Origin: an uncultured bacterium
GTDB taxonomy: Bacteria; Patescibacteriota; Microgenomatia; UBA1400; MFAQ01
NCBI GenBank assembly: GCA_963980225.1
Contig: CAXBYW010000002.1
Coordinates: 39,502-103,501, forward strand
Length of the DNA stretch: 64,000 bases
Direction: 5' to 3'
The number at the start of each line of letters is the position of its first letter. Within the stretch, counting starts at the first letter, position 1. The position numbers and the translations under genes are program-made. Positions 32,827 to 63,999 of this stretch are shown here, piece by piece. A model generated the notes under the pieces. It was given only the letters and a program-made list of their open reading frames with translations, did no database searches and was not told the DNA's origin.

Positions 32827-33456
32827 TCAGCCTATCTTTGGAGGTAGAGGTTTTTGAGTGAGGAAGTTTTCGATAAACTGGGGGGTGATTTCGGCTGGAG
32901 TGTTTGAAAAAGACGTTGGGAAACATTCTATCCAGAGTTCAAGGTGTTGTTGGAGTTTTTCTTGTAGGTTTTTTTGGGCACCAGATAGGTTTTGAACCTG
33001 GGATCTTTCTTTTTTGTACTTAACGGTGAGTTGAGTAGGAAGGTGAGTTAGACGGATGGCTGTTGCAAGTTTGTTTATATTTTGTCCACCTGGGCCTTGT
33101 TTACTAGCAAACCTTTTTGTTTCAACATTTTTTTGCATCTCTTTTGTGATGTCTATCTGTCCTCGTATTACGTTTTCTTGTAGCCATTGAGCGTAATTTA
33201 GGATACTGAGCTGTCTTTGATGAGGATGTTTGAAGCTTTCGTTGGAAAAGTTAAGTTGTAGTTGTTTGTATAGGATGAGTTTAGCCTTGTAGTGTCTGAG
33301 CTTTTGTTGATGTTGGTCTGTTTTCTTATGGCTGGTAAGAGTAGATCTGCCTGGTTTCTTGTTACCGCCAGTTTTATTTCTTCCCGCTTCTTGGTCCAGT
33401 TTGTCCTCATAATCGTCGGCAATCTTGGCTAGAGATGGGGGAAGCTCGTCTTTCAT
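32827..33456 (-). CDS. truncated class-I release-factor paralog (GGQ domain only)
   Basis: GPGGQNINKLATAIRLTHLPTQLTV...ERSQVQN is near-identical in pattern to the RF1 GGQ domain at 39756-40649. Lacks the codon-recognition (PxT/SPF) domain and the C-terminal RTYNFPQ segment. N-terminal 100 aa are low-complexity. Confidence 0.5.
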   Translation of the reverse strand: MKDELPPSLAKIADDYEDKLDQEAGRNKTGGNKKPGRSTLTSHKKTDQHQQKLRHYKAKLILYKQLQLNFSNESFKHPHQRQLSILNYAQWLQENVIRGQIDITKEMQKNVETKRFASKQGPGGQNINKLATAIRLTHLPTQLTVKYKKERSQVQNLSGAQKNLQEKLQQHLELWIECFPTSFSNTPAEITPQFIENFLTQKPLPPKIG

Positions 33457-33513
33457 AAGTTTAAGTATATATTATGCCGTTTTTAGTAAAAGGGTTTATG
33501 GTAAAGTGGATTC

Positions 33514-34170
33514 ATGAGTAAAGGGGGATGGATTGTAGTTGGTTTTATAGCTTTGAATCTGATTATCTTGAATGTATGGGTATTTGGAAACTTAGGCAAG
33601 ACGGATGCTGTTTTGGGAGATAGTGTAGAGAAGGTAATAGAAAAAGAGATTGTAGAAGTTAAGGGTGAAGATGATGGATGTGATCAGGAGTGCGTAATGG
33701 CAATAGTAGAAGAAAAAATAGATGAGTTAGTGAGTAAGTACGGTTTAGTGATAAAAAAAGAGACAAAGACGGTGTCTAAGACGGTAAGTACGATTAAACC
33801 AACAAGTGAGAAGTTTGTGAGAATAAGCGGGGGTGATGGTCAGGGAGCTGGTTGGATACGATTAGGAAGTAGTGTGTTTTGGTTGGATGCAGGCTTGTAT
33901 GGAGAGCTGGTGGAGGCTAGTTGGCAGGGTTGGTTGGAAACTTCTGGTGGGAGCTTGGATGGTTGGGTAAGGCTTTATGATGCAAGTAATGGTCGGGTGG
34001 TGGATGGAAGTGAGGTTCGAATAACAACTGATTTGTCTAAAACGAGTTTTTATTCAAGTAATATTGCCATCTGGCGAGGTCAGAACCAGTACTATATAGA
34101 AGTAAAGGATTTTGGAGGAGGAGATAGATTAACTGTGTCTGAACCTAGATTAAGGTTGGTGGTTAGGTAG
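33514..34170 (+). CDS. hypothetical membrane-anchored/secreted protein
   Basis: N-terminal TM. Beta-rich C-terminal region. No motif. Confidence 0.35.
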   Translation: MSKGGWIVVGFIALNLIILNVWVFGNLGKTDAVLGDSVEKVIEKEIVEVKGEDDGCDQECVMAIVEEKIDELVSKYGLVIKKETKTVSKTVSTIKPTSEKFVRISGGDGQGAGWIRLGSSVFWLDAGLYGELVEASWQGWLETSGGSLDGWVRLYDASNGRVVDGSEVRITTDLSKTSFYSSNIAIWRGQNQYYIEVKDFGGGDRLTVSEPRLRLVVR

Positions 34171-35209: not shown

Positions 35210-36250
35210 ATGAGTTTAAAAGTAGGAATAGTAGGATTAGCTAATGTGGGTAAATCAACCTTGTTTAACGCGCTTTTAAAGAAGCAGCAGGCTTTGGCGG
35301 CTAACTATCCCTTTGCTACCATCGAACCTAATGTGGGTATTGTGGGCGTGCCAGATGACCGATTAGAGAAACTGGCTAAGGTGGTAAAGACAGAGAATGT
35401 AATTCCGGCAACGGTGGAGTTTGTAGATATTGCGGGTTTGGTTAAAGGTGCTTCTAAAGGTGAAGGGTTGGGGAATAAGTTTCTGGCACATATTAGAGAA
35501 GTGGATTTAATGTGCTTAGTCTTGAGAGGTTTTTCTGACAAAGATGTGGTGGAGACCGGCAGTGGTGATCCAAAAGAAGACTTGGAAACACTGAAGATGG
35601 AACTTGTCTTGGCTGATCTTACTAGTTTAGAAAGACAGAATGAGCCTAAGATGAGCGCTAGTAAGGAAGAGAAGATTAGATGGGGTGGGGTAGAGAAGTT
35701 AAAAACTGGCTTGGGAGATGGGAAGATGGCAAGAGATGTTGAATTAACCGATGAAGAAAAGGTCTTGACTAAGGATCTGTCTCTTTTGACGATGAAACCT
35801 GCGATCGAGGTTTTGAACGTAGATGAGTCTCAAGTTAAAGAAGGAGAAGGCACGACAGTGAAGATTTGTGCGAAGATGGAGGCTGATCTTTCGGGATTTA
35901 GTGATAAGGAGAAGAAGGAGTACTTGGAACAGTTGGGAATAAAGGAGACAGGACTTGATAAATTGATCAGGTTGGCTTACGAAAAACTAGGGCTTTTGTC
36001 ATTTTTGACGGCTGGCGAGAAGGAAGTAAGGGCTTGGACTACTAAAAATGGGAGTACTGCACCGGTAGCAGCAGGAGTGATACATACGGATTTTGAGAAG
36101 AATTTTATCAAAGCTAAAGTAACCAGTTTTTCTGATTTTTTAAAGTTTAAAGGCTGGAAAGGTGTAAGTGAGGCTGGTAAGTTGAGACTAGAAGGAAAAG
36201 AATATGTGATGGAGGAAGGGGATGTGGTTGAGTTTATGGTGGGTAAGTAG
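35210..36250 (+). CDS. ychF: ribosome-binding ATPase YchF
   Basis: VGIVGLANVGKSTLFNAL G1 motif. C-terminal TGS domain. Confidence 0.9.
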   Translation: MSLKVGIVGLANVGKSTLFNALLKKQQALAANYPFATIEPNVGIVGVPDDRLEKLAKVVKTENVIPATVEFVDIAGLVKGASKGEGLGNKFLAHIREVDLMCLVLRGFSDKDVVETGSGDPKEDLETLKMELVLADLTSLERQNEPKMSASKEEKIRWGGVEKLKTGLGDGKMARDVELTDEEKVLTKDLSLLTMKPAIEVLNVDESQVKEGEGTTVKICAKMEADLSGFSDKEKKEYLEQLGIKETGLDKLIRLAYEKLGLLSFLTAGEKEVRAWTTKNGSTAPVAAGVIHTDFEKNFIKAKVTSFSDFLKFKGWKGVSEAGKLRLEGKEYVMEEGDVVEFMVGK

Positions 36251-38638: not shown

Positions 38639-39766
38639 ATGAAGAATTTCTTGATAGGACTAATGGTTTCGGTGATTGTACTTTTTTCTGCATTTGGAGG
38701 AGCCTTAGCAGACAGACTGTTTGTTATTAAGCCTTTGGATAAAATTTTTAAAAGAAGTGAGGTTGTGGTGGAAGAAAAGGTAAAAATACTAAGTGAGGAT
38801 GGTGGAGTAGTTGAAGTGGTAGAGAGAGTAAGTCCAGCGGTAGTGACGGTAGCGGTCATAGGCCAGACCCAAGGAAGAATAGTATTTGATGCTTTTGAGT
38901 TTTTTGGATTTAGACAAGAAGAACCGGAGATCGTACAACAAGATATTGGTTCTGGGTTTGTAGTCGATGGCCAAGAAGGGGTGGTGGTAACTAACAAGCA
39001 TGTAGTAGCTAGAGATGGAGTGAAGTATGTGGTGATTGATAAAGAAGGAGAGGAGTATGAGGTCAAGGATTTGTATAGGGACCCAGTGAATGACTTAGCG
39101 ATACTAAAGATTGAGGCTGAAAAGAGTTTGGAGGCAATTACGCTGGGTGATTCTGACCTTTTAAAGGTGGGCCAGAGAGTAATAGCTATTGGTACAGCTT
39201 TGGGAGAGTTTAGACACACAGTGACTACAGGGGTGATTTCTGGTTTGGGTAGGGGAATAAGTGCGGGTAATGGTTCCTTAGGGAGTCTTGAGAAAATTGA
39301 TGATGTCATCCAGACAGATGCCGCTATTAACCCTGGAAATTCTGGAGGACCTTTGCTTGATATAAATGGTCGGGTAATAGGAGTAAATGTAGCTGTGGCT
39401 GGTGGGGGAGAAAATATTGGTTTTGCTATTCCAATTAATGTAGTTAGGGAATCACTTGATAACTTTAAGGAGACAGGAAGCTTTGATAGGGTACAGTTGG
39501 GGGTGAAGTACAGGATGATAGATAAAGATGTGGCTTTACTGAATGATGTGCCTGCAGGAGCTTACATTGTGGAGGTGATGGAGGATTCAGTAGCAGCAAA
39601 AAATGGAGTTTTGGTAGGAGATATCATTATCAAACTTGAAAATGAAGGAGTAGTTGAAGTAGATGGTGGCCTGGCTGGTTTAATAGGTAAGTTGAAGGTG
39701 GGAGAAAATATTAAGATTGAATTATGGAGAAATGGTCAAATTTTGGTCCTAAATATTAAGCTTTAA
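38639..39766 (+). CDS. htrA: HtrA/DegP-family trypsin-like serine protease with PDZ domain
   Basis: N-terminal TM. TNKHVV (His), DLAILK (Asp), GNSGGPLLDINGRVIGVN (Ser) catalytic triad motifs. C-terminal PDZ. Confidence 0.85.
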   Translation: MKNFLIGLMVSVIVLFSAFGGALADRLFVIKPLDKIFKRSEVVVEEKVKILSEDGGVVEVVERVSPAVVTVAVIGQTQGRIVFDAFEFFGFRQEEPEIVQQDIGSGFVVDGQEGVVVTNKHVVARDGVKYVVIDKEGEEYEVKDLYRDPVNDLAILKIEAEKSLEAITLGDSDLLKVGQRVIAIGTALGEFRHTVTTGVISGLGRGISAGNGSLGSLEKIDDVIQTDAAINPGNSGGPLLDINGRVIGVNVAVAGGGENIGFAIPINVVRESLDNFKETGSFDRVQLGVKYRMIDKDVALLNDVPAGAYIVEVMEDSVAAKNGVLVGDIIIKLENEGVVEVDGGLAGLIGKLKVGENIKIELWRNGQILVLNIKL

Positions 39767-40649
39767 GGACTTTTTCTAGTTGACCTTCCATGACTTCTTT
39801 TAGGTTGTGCCAGCTTTTGTTTAGCCTGTGGTCGGTGAGTCTATTCTGGGGAAAGTTGTAGGTTTTTATCTTTTCTGATCTCATACCTCTACCTACGGCT
39901 TCTGATCTGGTGGCTTCGATTTCTTTTAGCTTTTCTTCTTCTTGCTGTTGCCAGAGTTTTGATCGCAGCATGTCTAAGGCTATTTCTTTGTTTTGAACTT
40001 GAGACCTTTCTTGACGAACAGATACAGTCATCTGGGTAGGTTTGTGGGTAAGACGAACAGCAGTGTTGACCTTGTTTACATTTTGTCCACCTGGTCCACC
40101 GGCTGTAGTGAAAGCCCATTCTAAGTCTGATAACTTGAGTTGGACTAAGTCCTTTTTAATTTCTGGTAAAACGGTTACTGTGGCAGTAGAGGTGTGGATT
40201 CTACCTTGTGACTCTGTGGCGGGGACTCTTTGGACTCTATGGACCCCAGCTTCATTTTTGAAGGTTTCAAAGCAACCTAGGGGCCAGTCAGAGCTGTTGG
40301 CTTTTTTGAGCTTGATTGTACTAGTGTCGATTTCTTCTATTTTGAAGTTATGGTTATTAGCAAATCTTACATACATTCGTAGTAGGTCTTGCGCAAAGAT
40401 TTTGGCTTCATCACCACCAGCAGCAGCTCTTATCTCTATGACGACTGGGGCATTTTTGGGAACTTGTGAAACTTTTTCTTTCTGTTTTTCTACCTGTTGG
40501 CCAGCTTTTTCTAGTTGTTTTATCTGATCTTGAAGTTTTTTGATTTCTTCTTTGGCTAGGGGACCGAGTTCAGGATCATTTACCAGGTCCTGGTGAGATT
40601 TGACTTTGTTTTGGAGGCGATCTATTTCTGGTTTAAGAGAGTTGTTCAT
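39756..40649 (-). CDS. prfA: peptide chain release factor 1 (N-terminally short, 297 aa)
   Basis: RVPATE (PxT tripeptide anticodon motif, RF1-type). GGQ ([12 protein letters not shown]). C-terminal [14 protein letters not shown]. Confidence 0.85.
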
Positions 40650-41166: not shown

Positions 41167-41239
41167 GCGGGATTAGCTTAGTTGGCAGAGCACTTTCCTG
41201 CTCGGGAAGAGGTCACAGGTTCGAGTCCTGTATCCTGCT
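41167..41239 (+). tRNA. tRNA-like element 1 (class I cloverleaf; anticodon loop CUGCUCG lacks purine-37; identity unclear)
   Basis: 7-bp acceptor GCGGGAT/ATCCTGC. D-arm TAGCTTAGTTGGCAGAGC. Canonical T-arm ACAGG-TTCGAGT-CCTGT. Anticodon stem CTTTC/GGAAG with loop CTGCTCG (anticodon would be GCU, but the short variable arm is incompatible with tRNA-Ser). Confidence 0.5.
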
Positions 41240-41769: not shown

Positions 41770-41848
41770 GCGGGCTTAGCTCAGCTGGTAGAGCATTCCG
41801 GACATCACTGAAAGGAAAAGGTCACAGGTTCGAATCCTGTAGTCCGCT
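41770..41848 (+). tRNA. tRNA-like element 2 with enlarged, non-canonical anticodon arm (23 nt instead of 17)
   Basis: Acceptor GCGGGCT/AGTCCGC. D-arm TAGCTCAGCTGGTAGAGC. T-arm ACAGG-TTCGAAT-CCTGT. Region between D and variable arms is ttccggacatcactgaaaggaaa, which cannot form a 5-bp stem plus 7-nt loop. Confidence 0.4.
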
Positions 41849-57409: not shown

Positions 57410-58354
57410 ATGGCGAAAGAAAAAAAAGAAGAACAAGTTTTAAGCAAGCTAATATCAAAATATTTAAGACATATTGAGCTAGAGAAGAATTACTCACCCT
57501 ATACCTTAAGGAACTATAAATATTATTTAAACTTTTTTAAAAATTGGTTTGAGAAGAAATATGAACAGGAGTATATCCAGAGGTTGACGAGTGAGATGGT
57601 AAGTAGTTATCGGTTGCACTTATCTAGACACGAGGATGAAAAAGGTAAGGGTTTGTCTGCGGCCACCCAAAGCTATTACATCATTTCCTTGAGGGCATTT
57701 TTAAAGTTTTTAGCAAAGAAAGGAATTAAAAGTTTGAGTGCAGAGAAAATAGATTTACCAAAAGTGGGTAGTAGGCAGATTAAGTTTCTAACTAGAGACC
57801 AAGTAGAGAGGCTACTAACGACTCCAGACTTGACAACAGTAAATGGCTTAAGAGATAGAACGATTTTGGAGGTATTATTCAGTACAGGTTTAAGGGTAAG
57901 TGAGATGGCTAAGCTCAATAGAGACAAGATTGATTTGAAAGCCAAGGAGTTTGGGATTATTGGAAAAGGTCGACGATCTAGAGTTGTGTTTTTAACGGAG
58001 AGATCTTGTGATTGGCTCAAAAGATACTTAAGTACAAGAGACGATCAATATAAACCATTGTGGATTAGATATTCTGGTAAGGCGGCTGATATCACCTCTT
58101 CTGGCGATAGTATGAGACTGTCTGTAAGAAGTATTCAAAGATTGGTCGAGAAATATAGAAGATTGGCGGGACTACCAATGAAGGTTAGCCCACACACCTT
58201 GAGACATTCTACTGCCACTACCCTACTCTCTTCCGGAGCAAATTTGAGATCTGTCCAAGAAATTTTGGGACATAAAAATGTAGCCACTACTCAGATATAT
58301 ACTCATATCACTAACCCCCAGTTAAAGAAAATCCACGAGAAATACTTGAAGTAA
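57410..58354 (+). CDS. tyrosine site-specific recombinase XerC/XerD-like
   Basis: N-terminal SAM-like core-binding domain. C-terminal HTLRHSTATTLLSSGANLRSVQEILGHKNVATTQIYTHI (HxxR...Y catalytic motifs). R in LRVSE box. Confidence 0.85.
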   Translation: MAKEKKEEQVLSKLISKYLRHIELEKNYSPYTLRNYKYYLNFFKNWFEKKYEQEYIQRLTSEMVSSYRLHLSRHEDEKGKGLSAATQSYYIISLRAFLKFLAKKGIKSLSAEKIDLPKVGSRQIKFLTRDQVERLLTTPDLTTVNGLRDRTILEVLFSTGLRVSEMAKLNRDKIDLKAKEFGIIGKGRRSRVVFLTERSCDWLKRYLSTRDDQYKPLWIRYSGKAADITSSGDSMRLSVRSIQRLVEKYRRLAGLPMKVSPHTLRHSTATTLLSSGANLRSVQEILGHKNVATTQIYTHITNPQLKKIHEKYLK

Positions 58355-58359
58355 TTTTG

Positions 58360-60993
58360 TTACTTTTTATTGATGGCAGTGATAGCGGCTACTGAATCCC
58401 CCGCTTTATTGAAACGCATGAGTATTACTCCTTGGGTTGGTCTTTTTAAAACAGTAATGTTCTTTATTGGTAGTTTGATTGCCTGAGCTTTGGTGGTAGT
58501 GATGATTAGTTCATCTGAATTTTGATCTACCATAACAGCACCGGCTATTTTTCCTGTTTTTTCGGTTACATCAGAAACTTTTAGACCTTGTCCACCCCTC
58601 TTTTGAGCAGGATATTGATTGAGAGGAGTTCTTTTACCTAGGCCATTTTTTGTGACGATTAGTAGATCCCTAAAAGCTTTCTTTCTCTTGTCTTTAAACT
58701 TTACTTGATTGGACGTGAAACACTCTAGAGACACACAGAAGTCATCTTTCTTTAGACTAATACCTCTAACTCCCATGGTGTCTCTTTTGGTAGCTCTGAC
58801 ATCTGATTCTTTAAATCTGATTGACTTACCATCCCTGGTAACTAAAAGAATATGATGGTCTCCAGATGTTTGATTAACCCAAACCAATTGATCCTTTTTA
58901 GTTAGATTGATGGCGATTAGACCATTGCTTTTAATGTTGGCGTATTGAGACAAAAGAGTTTTCTTAACAGTTCCTTGTCTGGTGGTGAAGAAAAGATAGG
59001 TATCTTTTTTGTCTAGGTCTTCTTTACCCAAAGGAAGTATGGCTTGAACCCTCTCTTCACCTTCGATGTTTATTAGATTAATGATGGCTTGACCCTTACT
59101 GGTTCTTGAGCCTTCTGGGAGTTCCCAAACTTTTAAAGAAAACACGCGACCCTTGTTGGTGAACACTAAAAGCTCATCATGAGTGTTGGCATTAGTCAGT
59201 AAACGGATGTTATCTGTTTCTCTTACAGACATTCCAGTCACTCCTTTACCACCTCTTCTTTGGCTTTTAAATATTCCTCGAGGCATGCGTTTTATGTAAC
59301 CAGACTTAGTAAGAGCAACGATGGTTTCTTCTTGAGGTACTAAATCTTCTTCTGAAAAATTTTCTATTGATGAAGCTACAACTTTTGTTTTTCTTTTGTC
59401 TCCGTAAATTTTGGTCAGCTCTACTAGCTCCTCTTTAATTATTTGAAGTACTTTTTCAGGTGATTTTAGTGTTATTACTATCTCTTTAATTATTCGAAGT
59501 AATTCATCATATTCATCTTGGATTTTTTCTCTTTCTAAGGCTGCTAAGCGACGCAACTGCATTTCTAAAATGGCTTCTGCTTGAAGTTCTGATAGTTTGA
59601 ATTTGGTCGTTAAATTCTTTTTAGCATCTACCTGATCTTTACTTTTCTTGATGGTTTCTATTATTTTGTCGATGTTGGCAAGGGCGATGAGTAGTCCCTC
59701 GAGTATGTGGGCTCTCTTTTTGGCGTTTGTGAGGTCGAATTGATTTCTTCTAACGATTACTCCTTGACGATGAATAACAAACTCTACAAGAATACTTTTA
59801 AGATTTAGTAGGCTGGGAACTCCTTTGGAAGTAAGGGCCACGACGTTGGCAGGATAGTTTATTTGTAGATCAGTATGTTTGTATAGTTGGTTAAGAATAC
59901 TTTTGGGCTTGGCGTCTTTTTTGAGATCTACTGCGATAGTTAGACCTTTTCTGTCTGATTCGTCTCTCAGGTCTTTGATACCGGTTATCTTTTTTTGTTT
60001 TACCAAGTCGGCAATTTTGGTAATTAATTTTGCTTTATTTACTTGATATGGAAGTTCGGAGATCAATATTTGCAACCTACCGTTCTTGTTTTCTATTATT
60101 TCAGCTACTCCCCTAACTTTAATACTGGCTTTACCAGTGTGGTAGAGTTTTTCTATTTCTTTTTTATCGTAGATGATGCCAGCGGTAGGGAAATCTGGTC
60201 CCTTAATGTGTTTTACTAGATGCTCCACCTGAGCTTTGGATGTTAGTTCACCGGTAATTTTTGAATAATGGGTGGTTTCAAGATCTTTATCTTCTATTTT
60301 ATTTGTAACGCTGACACTACTCTGGTCAATCAGTTCTTTTATGGCTTCAGTTATTTCACCTAAGTTGTGAGGTGGAATCTTGGTAGCCATACCTACGGCA
60401 ATGCCGTCCCCGCCCATTAGAAGTAGATTGGGAAGTCTGGCTGGCAAAACGTCAGGTTCTTGTTGGCTGCCATCAAAATTGTCACTGAAGTTTACAGTAT
60501 CCTTTTCGATGTCTTTGGTGAGCTCTTGAGCAATCTTAGTTAGCCTGGCTTCTGTGTAACGCATGGCAGCAGCGGAATCACCGTCGATAGAACCAAAGTT
60601 ACCTTGACCGTCCACTAACGGATAACGCATAGAGAATTCTTGAGCCAAGCGAACCATTGTTTGGTAGACAGCCTGGTCTCCATGAGGGTGGTATTTACCT
60701 AGAACCTCACCAACTACACGAGCTGATTTTTTATATGAACTTTTATGAGTGAGGCCCATTTCTTTCATGGCGAAAAGAATACGCCTATGAACTGGTTTTA
60801 GCCCATCTCTTACGTCTGGTAAGGCACGGGACACAATAACACTCATGGCGTAGTCTACATATGACTTCTCCATTTCATCAATGATTCCGGTTGCTTGAAT
60901 TAGTCCAAACTTGGTTGATTTGGGCTCACTACTACCATTAGAATCATCATTTTCTTGATCGACGATGGTTGGTATTTTTGTGTCTTTATCCAT
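58360..60993 (-). CDS. gyrA: DNA gyrase subunit A
   Basis: AMRYTEARL active-site Tyr region. C-terminal beta-pinwheel repeats. 877 aa. Confidence 0.95.
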
Positions 60994-61933
60994 TTTGAAT
61001 TATTTTTTCTATTGCGGGGGCGATTTCCTTTTTTCTTGATAACTTAGGACCGATATCTAAGATACCATCCACAGCTTGAGTTTTAAATGCTTTCTCTCCA
61101 ATTTGTATTGAAGAATCGATGGTGATTAGCTTGGTGTTTACATTTAATATGTCTGAGACAGCCAGGAAAATAATGTCTAGTTGTAGTTCTTTTTGTAGGT
61201 CAAGCATAGCTTTTTTTAACCCTGGCCCCCTACTTGATATGACTTCCTTTTGCTCTACTGTTTCGATTTGACCAATAAAAGTCTTTTTGCCGGCAAAATC
61301 AAATACTTTATAGTCGTTTTTAAGAAGTTCGGTGTCTGATAGTTTTGAAGTATTGGATTTAGCTTTGAAGATCTCTAGAGCCAACTTGTCGATATTTTGT
61401 ACTTTGGCTATTTTTGCCAGAGCTATGACCGCCTTTTTGTCTACATTAGTGGTGGTAGATGATTTAAGGTTAACTGTGTCGGATATAACTGCGGAAAGCA
61501 TGAGAGCGGCTAGTTTTTCTGGGATGTCTATTTTATAAAGATCCATGATGTTCCAGGCAATGGTGCAGGTTGATCCCCAGGCTTTGATGGTGGCATATAT
61601 TGGTTGGGGTAAATTCAGTGATAATTTGTGGTGGTCAAAAATATCGGAGATAAGTTCCGGATTTAGGCCATCTAGTCTTTGTGATTCTTCGTTATGGTCT
61701 ACCAAAACGACCTTGTCTTTTTGATTGATGTCTGATGCTGAAATGATTTCTGGTGTTGATTCCCCAAACTTATCGAACAAGAAAGCTGTTTCTGGATTTA
61801 AGGGATGAGCGATACAAGCTTTTGATGTTGGGTGACCCCAGCAGTCTTGGGTATCAAAAATATGTTTGAAAGCCAAAGCGGCTACAACGGAGTCTGTATC
61901 TGGTTTTTGGTGGCCTATTATAAAAGTTGTCAT
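60986..61933 (-). CDS. ppaC: manganese-dependent inorganic pyrophosphatase (family II, DHH/DHHA2)
   Basis: [38 protein letters not shown] motifs closely match family II PPase. 8-nt overlap with gyrA start. Confidence 0.8.
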
Positions 61934-61938
61934 TTTGT

Positions 61939-63999
<2,061 letters not shown>

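What the first reader, a model, noticed from the sequence alone, without database searches (positions are those of the whole stretch)
32827..33456. Second, truncated GGQ-domain release-factor paralog in addition to RF1
The 209-aa protein carries a GGQ domain (GPGGQNINKLATAIRLTHLPTQLTV..ERSQVQN) almost motif-for-motif identical to that of RF1 at 39756-40649. It has no codon-recognition domain (no PxT or SPF) and no C-terminal RTYNFPQ block. Its N-terminal 100 aa are low-complexity.

It is not ArfB-like, since the GGQ is central and not N-terminal, and it is not a frameshifted prfB (no upstream coding potential). Since TGA is a stop here, a genuine RF2 is expected elsewhere. This gene could be a diverged ribosome-rescue/peptidyl-tRNA hydrolase factor or a decaying RF2 remnant.
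Basis: partly seen in the sequence, partly recalled or inferred. Interest (0 to 1): 0.6.

Follow-up and report, generated by a model that had tools for sequence, protein, structure and literature searches.

The report
New GGQ peptide-release factor family
This intact, conserved gene encodes a release-factor catalytic (GGQ) domain joined to a previously undescribed N-terminal helical, basic module; it is probably a new kind of stalled-ribosome rescue factor in Patescibacteria and Chloroflexota, and it is not a decaying RF2.

Summary
ORF 32827-33456 (-) encodes 209 aa with a significant RF-1/GGQ domain (Pfam 59 bits), no PCRF codon-recognition domain, and 57% identity to the window's RF1 over 58 residues.

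The gene is not a decaying RF2 or a frameshifted prfB. The identical protein is on 31 contigs, and orthologues at 77% and 54% identity keep the full length. pN is 0.14 against a saturated pS of 0.75.

It belongs to an unannotated family of at least 75 clusters at 50% identity, each 175-260 aa. Members occur in Patescibacteria (Collierbacteria; the window organism resembles Woesebacteria) and in a Chloroflexota-labelled MAG.

The shared plan is an acidic head, a Gly/Lys-rich basic segment, two helices with near-invariant Y..W, the GGQ domain, an alpha7-like helix with H...W, and a non-basic C-tail.

Two AlphaFold models agree on this topology. Only the GGQ domain matches any solved structure, Pfam model or RF2 profile. 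The N-module was only ever found attached to GGQ.

The most likely function is stop-codon-independent peptidyl-tRNA hydrolysis on stalled ribosomes, with the sensor placed N-terminally rather than C-terminally as in ArfB. I could not establish whether prfB exists elsewhere in this genome.

The parts
32827..33456 (-). Complete gene for the 209-aa GGQ protein (ATG at 33456, TGA stop at 32827-32829)
   Evidence: ORF list. Pfam RF-1, 59 bits. The identical protein is on 31 contigs. The N-terminus aligns from Met1 with its orthologues.
33379..33456 (-). Residues 1-26: acidic head (ELPPSLAKIADDYEDKLDQE), predicted helix 7-26 of modest confidence
   Evidence: Net charge is -4 here, the family mean is -4.9, and 95% of 44 members are negative. 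pLDDT is 67-76. The same region is disordered in the distant member P0244.
33250..33378 (-). Residues 27-69: Gly/Lys-rich flexible stretch (GRNKTGGNKKPGRS) running into a long basic helix (37-69)
   Evidence: Net charge is +10 here, the family mean is +7.5, and 95% of members are positive. The family consensus is GxGGGxKK. Helix 37-69 has pLDDT above 90 from about residue 41. The equivalent helix in P0244 is 42-72.
33142..33249 (-). Residues 70-105: second helix (78-98) carrying the near-invariant Y88..W91 motif (codons 33193-33195 and 33184-33186)
   Evidence: Y88 and W91 are at least 90% conserved in 44 sequences and in the N-module-only alignment. pLDDT is 96-97.
33001..33141 (-). Residues 106-152: GGQ catalytic domain (strands 111-116, 133-138, 144-147); GGQ codons at 33082-33090
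32923..33000 (-). Residues 153-178: alpha7-like helix with H171 (near-invariant) and W175 (invariant; codon 32932-32934), a family-specific motif HL..W
   Evidence: Alignments A2 and A5. Helix 153-178 has pLDDT 96-98.
32830..32922 (-). Residues 179-209: short non-basic C-terminal tail with one helix (192-200). It replaces RF domain 4 and differs from the basic tail of ArfB
   Evidence: Net charge is 0 here and the family mean is -1. There is no match to positions 73-116 of the Pfam RF-1 profile.
33457..33513 (.). 57-bp divergent intergenic region between the GGQ gene and the 218-aa hypothetical gene. The promoter presumably lies here or just beyond
   Evidence: ORF map. The only minus-strand promoter-like match nearby is at 33590-33562, and it is weak (9 of 12 positions). 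No terminator-like site was found.
35210..36250 (+). ychF, the recurrent neighbour of this family in Patescibacteria (context, not part of the gene)
   Evidence: ychF lies next to the GGQ gene in L007, L008 and L099, and two genes away here.

Best explanation
The gene encodes a stand-alone peptidyl-tRNA hydrolase that acts on the ribosome without reading a stop codon. It belongs to a previously unannotated family found in Patescibacteria and Chloroflexota.

What is shown:
- It carries a complete, conserved release-factor GGQ domain.
- It has no stop-codon-reading domain.
- A family-specific N-terminal module was only ever found attached to GGQ, in a search of limited sensitivity.
- The gene is under purifying selection.
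- It has no fixed partner gene.

What is inferred: the protein enters the A site of ribosomes that are stalled, so not at a normal stop codon. The two long helices, together with the alpha7-like helix, would act as a rigid spacer. The flexible Gly/Lys-rich basic stretch near the N-terminus would bind rRNA at or near the vacant decoding centre or mRNA channel, the job done by the basic C-terminal tails of ArfB, PrfH-CT and SmpB. The GGQ loop would then reach the peptidyl-transferase centre and release the nascent chain. The acidic head may mask the basic stretch when the protein is off the ribosome; this last point is speculation.

The protein would back up trans-translation in lineages where canonical ArfB is rare.
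For: - GGQ domain is significant, with the catalytic GGQ and the TH.PT motif invariant in 44-49 sequences.
- No PCRF domain and no RF domain 4.
- Family size: about 75 of the best 150 representatives at 50% identity align over nearly the whole profile.
- Members include a Collierbacteria protein and a protein in a Chloroflexota-labelled MAG scoring 170 bits.
- The charge pattern is conserved: acidic head -4.9, basic segment +7.5, C-tail -1.
- Two AlphaFold models of members only 23% identical give the same topology, with pLDDT 86.9 and 78.7.
- The N-module profile retrieves only proteins of 174-230 aa that also carry PF00472.
- Purifying selection acts on every segment: pN 0.14 against pS 0.75.
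- No conserved partner gene such as RtcB and no defence-system match.
- In Patescibacteria the gene sits in a translation-gene block: ychF, S6-SSB-S18, prfA, L31.
- Canonical ArfB was found in 1 of 16 Chloroflexi genomes (PMC4235212).
- Basic tails are the established sensors in ArfB, SmpB and PrfH-CT (PMC8012679; PMC12829566).
Against: - There is no experimental data and no ribosome-complex model.
- The flexible basic stretch is short, about 10-20 residues, and most of the basic segment is predicted to be part of a packed helix.
- The family is patchy. A Woesebacteria genome with the same gene order lacks the gene at that site.
- I could not determine whether this genome has tmRNA/SmpB, ArfB, RqcH or RF2.
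- The substrate (70S non-stop complex, split 50S carrying peptidyl-tRNA, or a damaged ribosome) is not distinguished by any result here.
Confidence: 0.55

Rival explanations
1. It rescues split large subunits that still carry peptidyl-tRNA, as mitochondrial mtRF-R/C12orf65 does with MTRES1. The N-terminal helical and basic module would contact the P-site tRNA or 23S rRNA in place of the missing small subunit.
Against: The similarity covers the GGQ domain only. mtRF-R has its extension at the C-terminus and needs a partner, MTRES1, whereas no conserved partner gene is seen here. Nothing tested here separates 50S from 70S substrates.
Confidence: 0.2
2. It is a PrfH-like factor that releases peptides from ribosomes damaged by ribotoxins, using the N-module to recognise cleaved rRNA.
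For: It is about 200 aa with the GGQ at about residue 120, as in PrfH. NCBIfam prfH scores 45.7 bits. The PrfH chains 9mor_A and 7sa4_8 are among the top sequence and fold hits.
Against: The score is far below the prfH cutoff of 166.65 and matches the GGQ region only. The N-module is predicted all-helical and matches no solved structure, PrfH included. No RtcB neighbour appears in any of the nine distinct contexts read.
Confidence: 0.07
3. It is a decaying remnant of RF2 (or RF1), or the 3' half of a frameshifted or misassembled prfB.
For: The GGQ core resembles RF1 and RF2. No prfB was seen in the 84 kb examined.
Against: - The identical sequence is on 31 independent contigs.
- Orthologues at 77% and 54% identity keep the full length and the same start.
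- pN/pS is about 0.19 with pS saturated.
- The family is large and has its own invariant residues.
- hhalign of the N-module against RF2 gives probability 1.25%.
- A divergent gene starts 57 bp upstream, and there is no PCRF-like coding there.
Confidence: 0.02
4. It replaces RF2 functionally. The lineage would have lost prfB, and this protein would release chains at UGA, either by a new recognition mode in the helical N-module or by rescuing ribosomes paused at UGA.
For: TGA ends 16 of 69 ORFs. No prfB was found in the window or its 10-kb flanks, and the prfB-ftsEX cluster seen in another Patescibacteria genome is not in the window. The profile's next-best hits after family members are Patescibacteria RF2s.
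Against: Only about 84 kb of a contig of at least 526 kb was examined. The family also occurs in a Chloroflexota-labelled MAG, a phylum I expect to carry RF1 and RF2 on general grounds. The family is patchy even among close relatives. Some Microgenomates-group genomes do have RF2, for example the Pacebacteria protein P0307 with an SPF motif. Nothing resembling a codon-reading element is conserved.
Confidence: 0.03
5. It is a permanent ribosomal subunit component, as ICT1/mL62 is in mitoribosomes, anchored by the N-module and compensating for ribosomal proteins missing in CPR bacteria.
Against: The distribution is patchy. Chloroflexota-type members sit next to formate dehydrogenase genes. There is no homology to ICT1's own extensions.
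Confidence: 0.04

Closest known systems
ArfB (YaeJ) / mitochondrial ICT1 (mL62)
   Same: A stand-alone GGQ domain without a stop-codon-reading domain. It is a single-gene system with no obligatory partner gene. It carries a strongly basic segment that could bind rRNA.
   Different: In ArfB the GGQ domain is N-terminal and is followed by a linker and a basic C-terminal tail, in about 140 aa. Here the GGQ is central, the basic segment and a two-helix module are N-terminal, and the C-tail is not basic (mean charge -1). The NCBIfam ArfB model scores 29 bits against a cutoff of 100, over 25 residues only.
PrfH (RF-H), including the PrfH-CT subfamily (PMC12829566)
   Same: About 200-230 aa with the GGQ near residue 120. 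It is an accessory release factor alongside RF1 and RF2. PrfH chains are among the best GGQ-domain hits.
   Different: PrfH has an rRNA-recognition domain derived from RF domains 2/4, and usually an RtcB neighbour. PrfH-CT adds a basic C-terminal tail. The N-module here is predicted helical and matches no solved structure. It is unrelated to RF2 by hhalign. No RtcB is nearby. The prfH model scores 45.7 bits against a cutoff of 166.65.
Class I release factors RF1 / RF2
   Same: The GGQ domain and the start of helix alpha7 are homologous (hhalign probability 99.8% over 71 columns; 57% identity to the window's RF1).
   Different: There is no domain 1, no PCRF domain 2 with a PxT or SPF motif, and no domain 4. 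It therefore has none of the known means of reading a stop codon.
C12orf65 / mtRF-R
   Different: The extension in mtRF-R is C-terminal and basic, the protein works with MTRES1 on split mitoribosomal large subunits, and it is eukaryotic and organellar.

Membership tests
RF1/RF2 (class I release factors; NCBIfam TIGR00019/TIGR00020) | PCRF domain (domain 2) with a PxT or SPF tripeptide | tested here: not met
   No PF03462 hit. hhalign of the N-module against an RF2 alignment gives probability 1.25%. The window's RF1 does have PCRF (136 bits) and a PAT motif.
RF1/RF2 (class I release factors; NCBIfam TIGR00019/TIGR00020) | Whole-protein score above the curated cutoff | tested here: not met
   prfB scores 54.6 bits against 370, and prfA scores 48.7 bits against 423.
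RF1/RF2 (class I release factors; NCBIfam TIGR00019/TIGR00020) | GGQ domain (PF00472) | tested here: met
   59.2 bits against a cutoff of 35. GGQ is invariant in the family.
ArfB (NF006718) | N-terminal GGQ domain, then a linker and a basic C-terminal tail; about 140 aa; score above cutoff | tested here: not met
   29.1 bits against a cutoff of 100. The GGQ is at residues 123-125 of 209. C-tail net charge is 0 here and averages -1 across the family.
PrfH (TIGR03072 / IPR017509) | N-terminal rRNA-recognition domain related to RF domains 2/4; score above cutoff | tested here: not met
PrfH (TIGR03072 / IPR017509) | Operon partner RtcB | tested here: not met
   No RtcB in any of the nine distinct gene contexts read.
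N-extended GGQ family defined here (unnamed) | Acidic head, then a Gly/Lys-rich basic segment, then a helix with Y..W, then the GGQ domain, then a helix with H...W; 175-260 aa | tested here: met
   All motifs are present in the window protein: Y88, W91, H171 and W175. It scores 171 bits against the family profile. The charge pattern fits.
N-extended GGQ family defined here (unnamed) | Peptidyl-tRNA hydrolase activity on ribosomes | not testable with these tools
   Inferred only from the invariant GGQ and the conserved rRNA-contacting motif TH.PT.
Anti-phage defence systems (PADLOC) | Match to a defence-system model | tested here: not met
   No PADLOC hits for this protein or its upstream neighbour.

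The most novel reading that the evidence does not exclude
This is a fourth architecture of stop-codon-independent release factor, after ArfB/ICT1, C12orf65 and PrfH. In it, a novel N-terminal helical and basic module, rather than a C-terminal tail or an RF-derived recognition domain, recognises the stalled ribosome. It would be the main backup to trans-translation in part of the Patescibacteria and Chloroflexota.

A more radical version is that it handles UGA in a lineage lacking prfB. This is not excluded but is very unlikely (about 0.03).
Probability: 0.45. Interest if true: 0.7.

Novelty: new variant of a known kind. Interest (0 to 1): 0.6.

Why it matters
Bacterial backup systems for stalled ribosomes are known for only a few lineages: ArfA, ArfB, ArfT, BrfA, PrfH and RqcH. 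For the Candidate Phyla Radiation and most Chloroflexota no alternative rescue factor has been described. Canonical ArfB was found in 1 of 16 Chloroflexi genomes (PMC4235212).

A conserved family that couples the universal GGQ catalytic domain to a new recognition module would add an independent solution to the same problem. It would show that the sensor can sit on the other side of the catalytic domain. It would also give a testable candidate for how genome-reduced episymbionts maintain translation quality control.

The family is currently annotated only as 'hypothetical protein' or mislabelled 'release factor B'. The N-module matches no Pfam model, and NCBIfam returns only the generic release-factor and ArfB models, all far below their cutoffs.

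Tried and rejected
- **GTDB genome scan.** The scan with the close-subfamily alignment was swamped. It still yielded one true member by chance (L025, Chloroflexota MAG) and a Woesebacteria locus (L040) that placed the organism.
- **Search for prfB.** tblastn of the window, 10-kb extensions at both ends, and a look for the prfB-ftsE-ftsX-pyrG neighbourhood seen in another Patescibacteria genome were all negative. A protein search for this genome's RF2 was judged hopeless, because Patescibacteria RF2s are 55-70% identical to each other and only 120 hits are listed.
- **Neighbour-joining tree of the 70-residue GGQ core** (family, RF1, RF2, ArfB-like). It is unresolved. Bootstrap support for family monophyly is 6 of 100, and 0 for RF1 and RF2. 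Mean identity is about 38% both within the family and between the family and RF1 or RF2. The origin of the GGQ domain cannot be assigned.
- **N-module as a relic of RF domain 1.** hhalign gives probability 1.25%. Rejected as undetectable.
- **N-module against PDB sequences and Pfam.** Only noise was returned.
- **AlphaFold-database fold library.** Not available.
- **Defence-system models.** No hits.
- **Literature.** Searches for GGQ with CPR, Patescibacteria or Chloroflexi found no description of this architecture.

Full report
**1. The observation**

- Pfam finds the RF-1/GGQ domain at residues 109-171 (59.2 bits, E 4.8e-16, cutoff 35) and no PCRF domain.
- NCBIfam models for prfB, prfA, prfH and ArfB all match only the GGQ region and fall far below their cutoffs: 54.6/370, 48.7/423, 45.7/167 and 29/100 bits.
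It shares 33 of 58 residues with the GGQ core of this protein (E 8e-18).
- TGA is a working stop codon here. It ends 16 of 69 long ORFs, and the proteins it ends have normal lengths. RecR, for instance, is 201 aa both here and in L008.
- Nothing upstream resembles a PCRF domain. A divergent gene starts 57 bp upstream.

**2. It is not a remnant**

- The identical protein occurs on 31 contigs from several sources, the longest 526,271 bp. RF1 and CysRS of the window share that longest-contig value.
- Orthologues at 77%, 54% and 54% identity keep the same start, full length (191-209 aa) and conserved residues along the whole protein, including the N-terminal 100 residues.
- Against the 77% orthologue, pN is 0.14 and pS is 0.75 (saturated), in every segment.

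**3. It belongs to a sizeable, unannotated family**

A profile of the four close sequences was searched against 1.84 billion cluster representatives. It found about 75 proteins of 160-260 aa that align over nearly the whole profile, among the best 150 hits.

A 44-sequence alignment (A2) shows:
- invariant G123, G124, Q125, H138 and W175;
- at least 90% conservation of Y88, W91, K129, T141, R151, N156, A160 and H171.

The shared plan is:
- an acidic head (mean net charge -4.9; negative in 95% of members);
- a Gly/Lys-rich stretch (consensus GxGGGxKK) leading into a basic helix (segment mean +7.5; positive in 95%);
- a second helix with Y..W;
- the GGQ domain;
- an alpha7-like helix ending HL..W;
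- a short tail that is not basic (mean -1).

A profile of the N-terminal 100 residues alone retrieved only proteins of 174-230 aa that also carry PF00472. So, as far as that search could see (it needs shared 5-residue words), the module occurs only with GGQ. Sources name these proteins 'hypothetical protein' or, wrongly, 'release factor B'.

**4. Structure**

- AlphaFold2 on A2 gives a confident model (pLDDT 86.9, pTM 0.75). Its elements are helices 7-26, 37-69, 78-98 and 103-109, strands 111-116, 133-138 and 144-147, and helices 153-178 and 192-200. The GGQ loop has lower confidence, as expected.
- A member only 23% identical (P0244) gives the same topology. Its first 39 residues, the acidic and Gly/Lys part, are predicted disordered.
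- Sequence profiles against the PDB align only positions 94-168.
- The N-module has no PDB or Pfam relative and no detectable similarity to RF2 (hhalign probability 1.25%). The GGQ part aligns with RF2 at probability 99.8%.

**5. Who has it, and where it sits**

- The window's RF1 is 60% identical over its full length to that of a Woesebacteria MAG (L040). The gene order EamA-L31-RF1-S41 peptidase-S18-SSB-S6-YchF...hyp218-CysRS is shared. The organism is therefore a Microgenomates-type Patescibacterium.
- L040 has hyp218 and cysS adjacent, with no GGQ gene between them and no family member in the 20-kb locus. The family is patchy.
- Named or placed members: Collierbacteria (P0121), 'Patescibacteria group bacterium' (P0004), and a MAG labelled Chloroflexota (L025 9725-10321, 170 bits).
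- In Patescibacteria the gene is next to or near ychF in four of five contexts: the window, L007, L008 and L099. L099 holds a member only 22% identical to the window protein.
- In the Chloroflexota-type members it follows a formate dehydrogenase cluster (L010, L025, L100).
- There is no conserved partner such as RtcB, and there are no defence-system matches.

**6. Mechanism**

Shown:
- an intact catalytic GGQ domain with the residues that contact the peptidyl-transferase centre in release factors;
- no codon-reading domain;
- a conserved, structured N-module with a flexible basic stretch;
- a single-gene system.

Inferred: the protein hydrolyses peptidyl-tRNA on ribosomes that are stalled rather than terminating. 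This is the only known role of GGQ proteins that lack a codon-reading domain: ArfB/ICT1, C12orf65 and PrfH (PMC6514570; PMC8012679; PMC12829566).

In those factors a basic tail (ArfB, PrfH-CT, SmpB) or an rRNA-recognition domain (PrfH) senses the abnormal decoding site. Here the only strongly basic, flexible element is N-terminal. I therefore propose that it does the sensing or anchoring, with the helix bundle as spacer.

Canonical ArfB is rare in Chloroflexi (1 of 16 genomes; PMC4235212), which leaves room for an alternative. The substrate could be a 70S non-stop complex, a split 50S or a damaged ribosome. This remains open.

**7. What I could not settle**

I could not show whether prfB exists elsewhere in this genome. 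It is absent from the window and from 10 kb on each side. The prfB-ftsEX cluster seen in another Patescibacterium is not in the window. That covers only about 84 kb of a contig of at least 526 kb.

The family also occurs in a Chloroflexota-labelled MAG, and some Microgenomates-group genomes have RF2 (P0307, with an SPF motif). I therefore consider RF2 replacement very unlikely.

The 70-residue GGQ tree is unresolved. Whether the domain came from RF1 or RF2 cannot be said. It is equally similar to the genome's own RF1 (57%) and to foreign RF2s (53-55%).

**8. Verdict**

The finding is real, and more interesting than 'truncated paralogue' suggests. It is a member of an undescribed GGQ family with a new N-terminal module. 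The family is a new variant within the known kind 'stop-codon-independent GGQ peptidyl-tRNA hydrolases'. The functional assignment is inference only.

Noticed in passing
window 1-64000 (strongest over 1-57000): The plus strand has an extreme G-over-C bias. GC skew is +0.3 to +0.5 in 2-kb windows. At third codon positions it is +0.26 to +0.75 in every gene, whatever the gene's orientation. Minus-strand genes, including the GGQ gene and RF1, are therefore C-rich and encode Q/H/P/T/L-rich proteins. This explains the 'low-complexity' look of the N-terminus. The whole-gene skew falls to near zero over the minus-strand gyrA/DHH/gyrB genes (58360-63996), although the third-position skew stays at +0.3 to +0.4 there.
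   Followed up: partly
window 41167-41239 (+): ARAGORN calls this tRNA Ser(GCU). It is only 73 nt, has a short variable loop (not the long arm of bacterial tRNA-Ser), a G3:U70 pair (the classical alanine identity element) and C at position 37. AGT still sits at conserved serine positions: GSASASE in the S41 peptidase and GKS in CysRS. There is therefore no sign of AGY reassignment. The identity of this tRNA is unexplained.
   Followed up: partly
window 41770-41848 (+): tRNA-Met(CAU) is 79 nt, with six extra nucleotides in the anticodon arm relative to the Rfam model. Its D and T arms are nearly identical to those of the neighbouring tRNA.
   Followed up: no
window 39756-40649 (-): RF1 is only 297 aa, and the Pfam PCRF match starts at profile position 44, so domain 1 is shortened. 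The Woesebacteria orthologue matches over the same full length. Patescibacteria RF2s are also about 293 aa.
   Followed up: partly
L025 9725-10321; L010 10001-10534; L100 10001-10597: Family members in a Chloroflexota-labelled MAG and in similar contigs always lie just downstream of an NAD-dependent formate dehydrogenase/FdhD/FTHFS cluster. The linkage is unexplained. It may simply reflect close relatedness of these three organisms.
   Followed up: partly
L040 13147-20164 (Woesebacteria MAG DAOORK010000001.1): This locus shares the window's gene order but lacks the GGQ gene. hyp218 and cysS are directly adjacent, and different small ORFs lie between ychF and hyp218. The gene is gained or lost at this spot within Microgenomates.
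   Followed up: partly
window 33514-34170 (+): This 218-aa protein has an N-terminal hydrophobic segment and no Pfam or PADLOC match. It is conserved next to cysS in the Woesebacteria locus (44% identity). It is divergently transcribed from the GGQ gene.
   Followed up: no
window 57410-58354 (+) and 58360-63996 (-): An XerC/D-type tyrosine recombinase lies next to gyrA, a DHH-family phosphoesterase and gyrB. Type IV pilus and T2SS-like genes follow beyond the window end.
   Followed up: no
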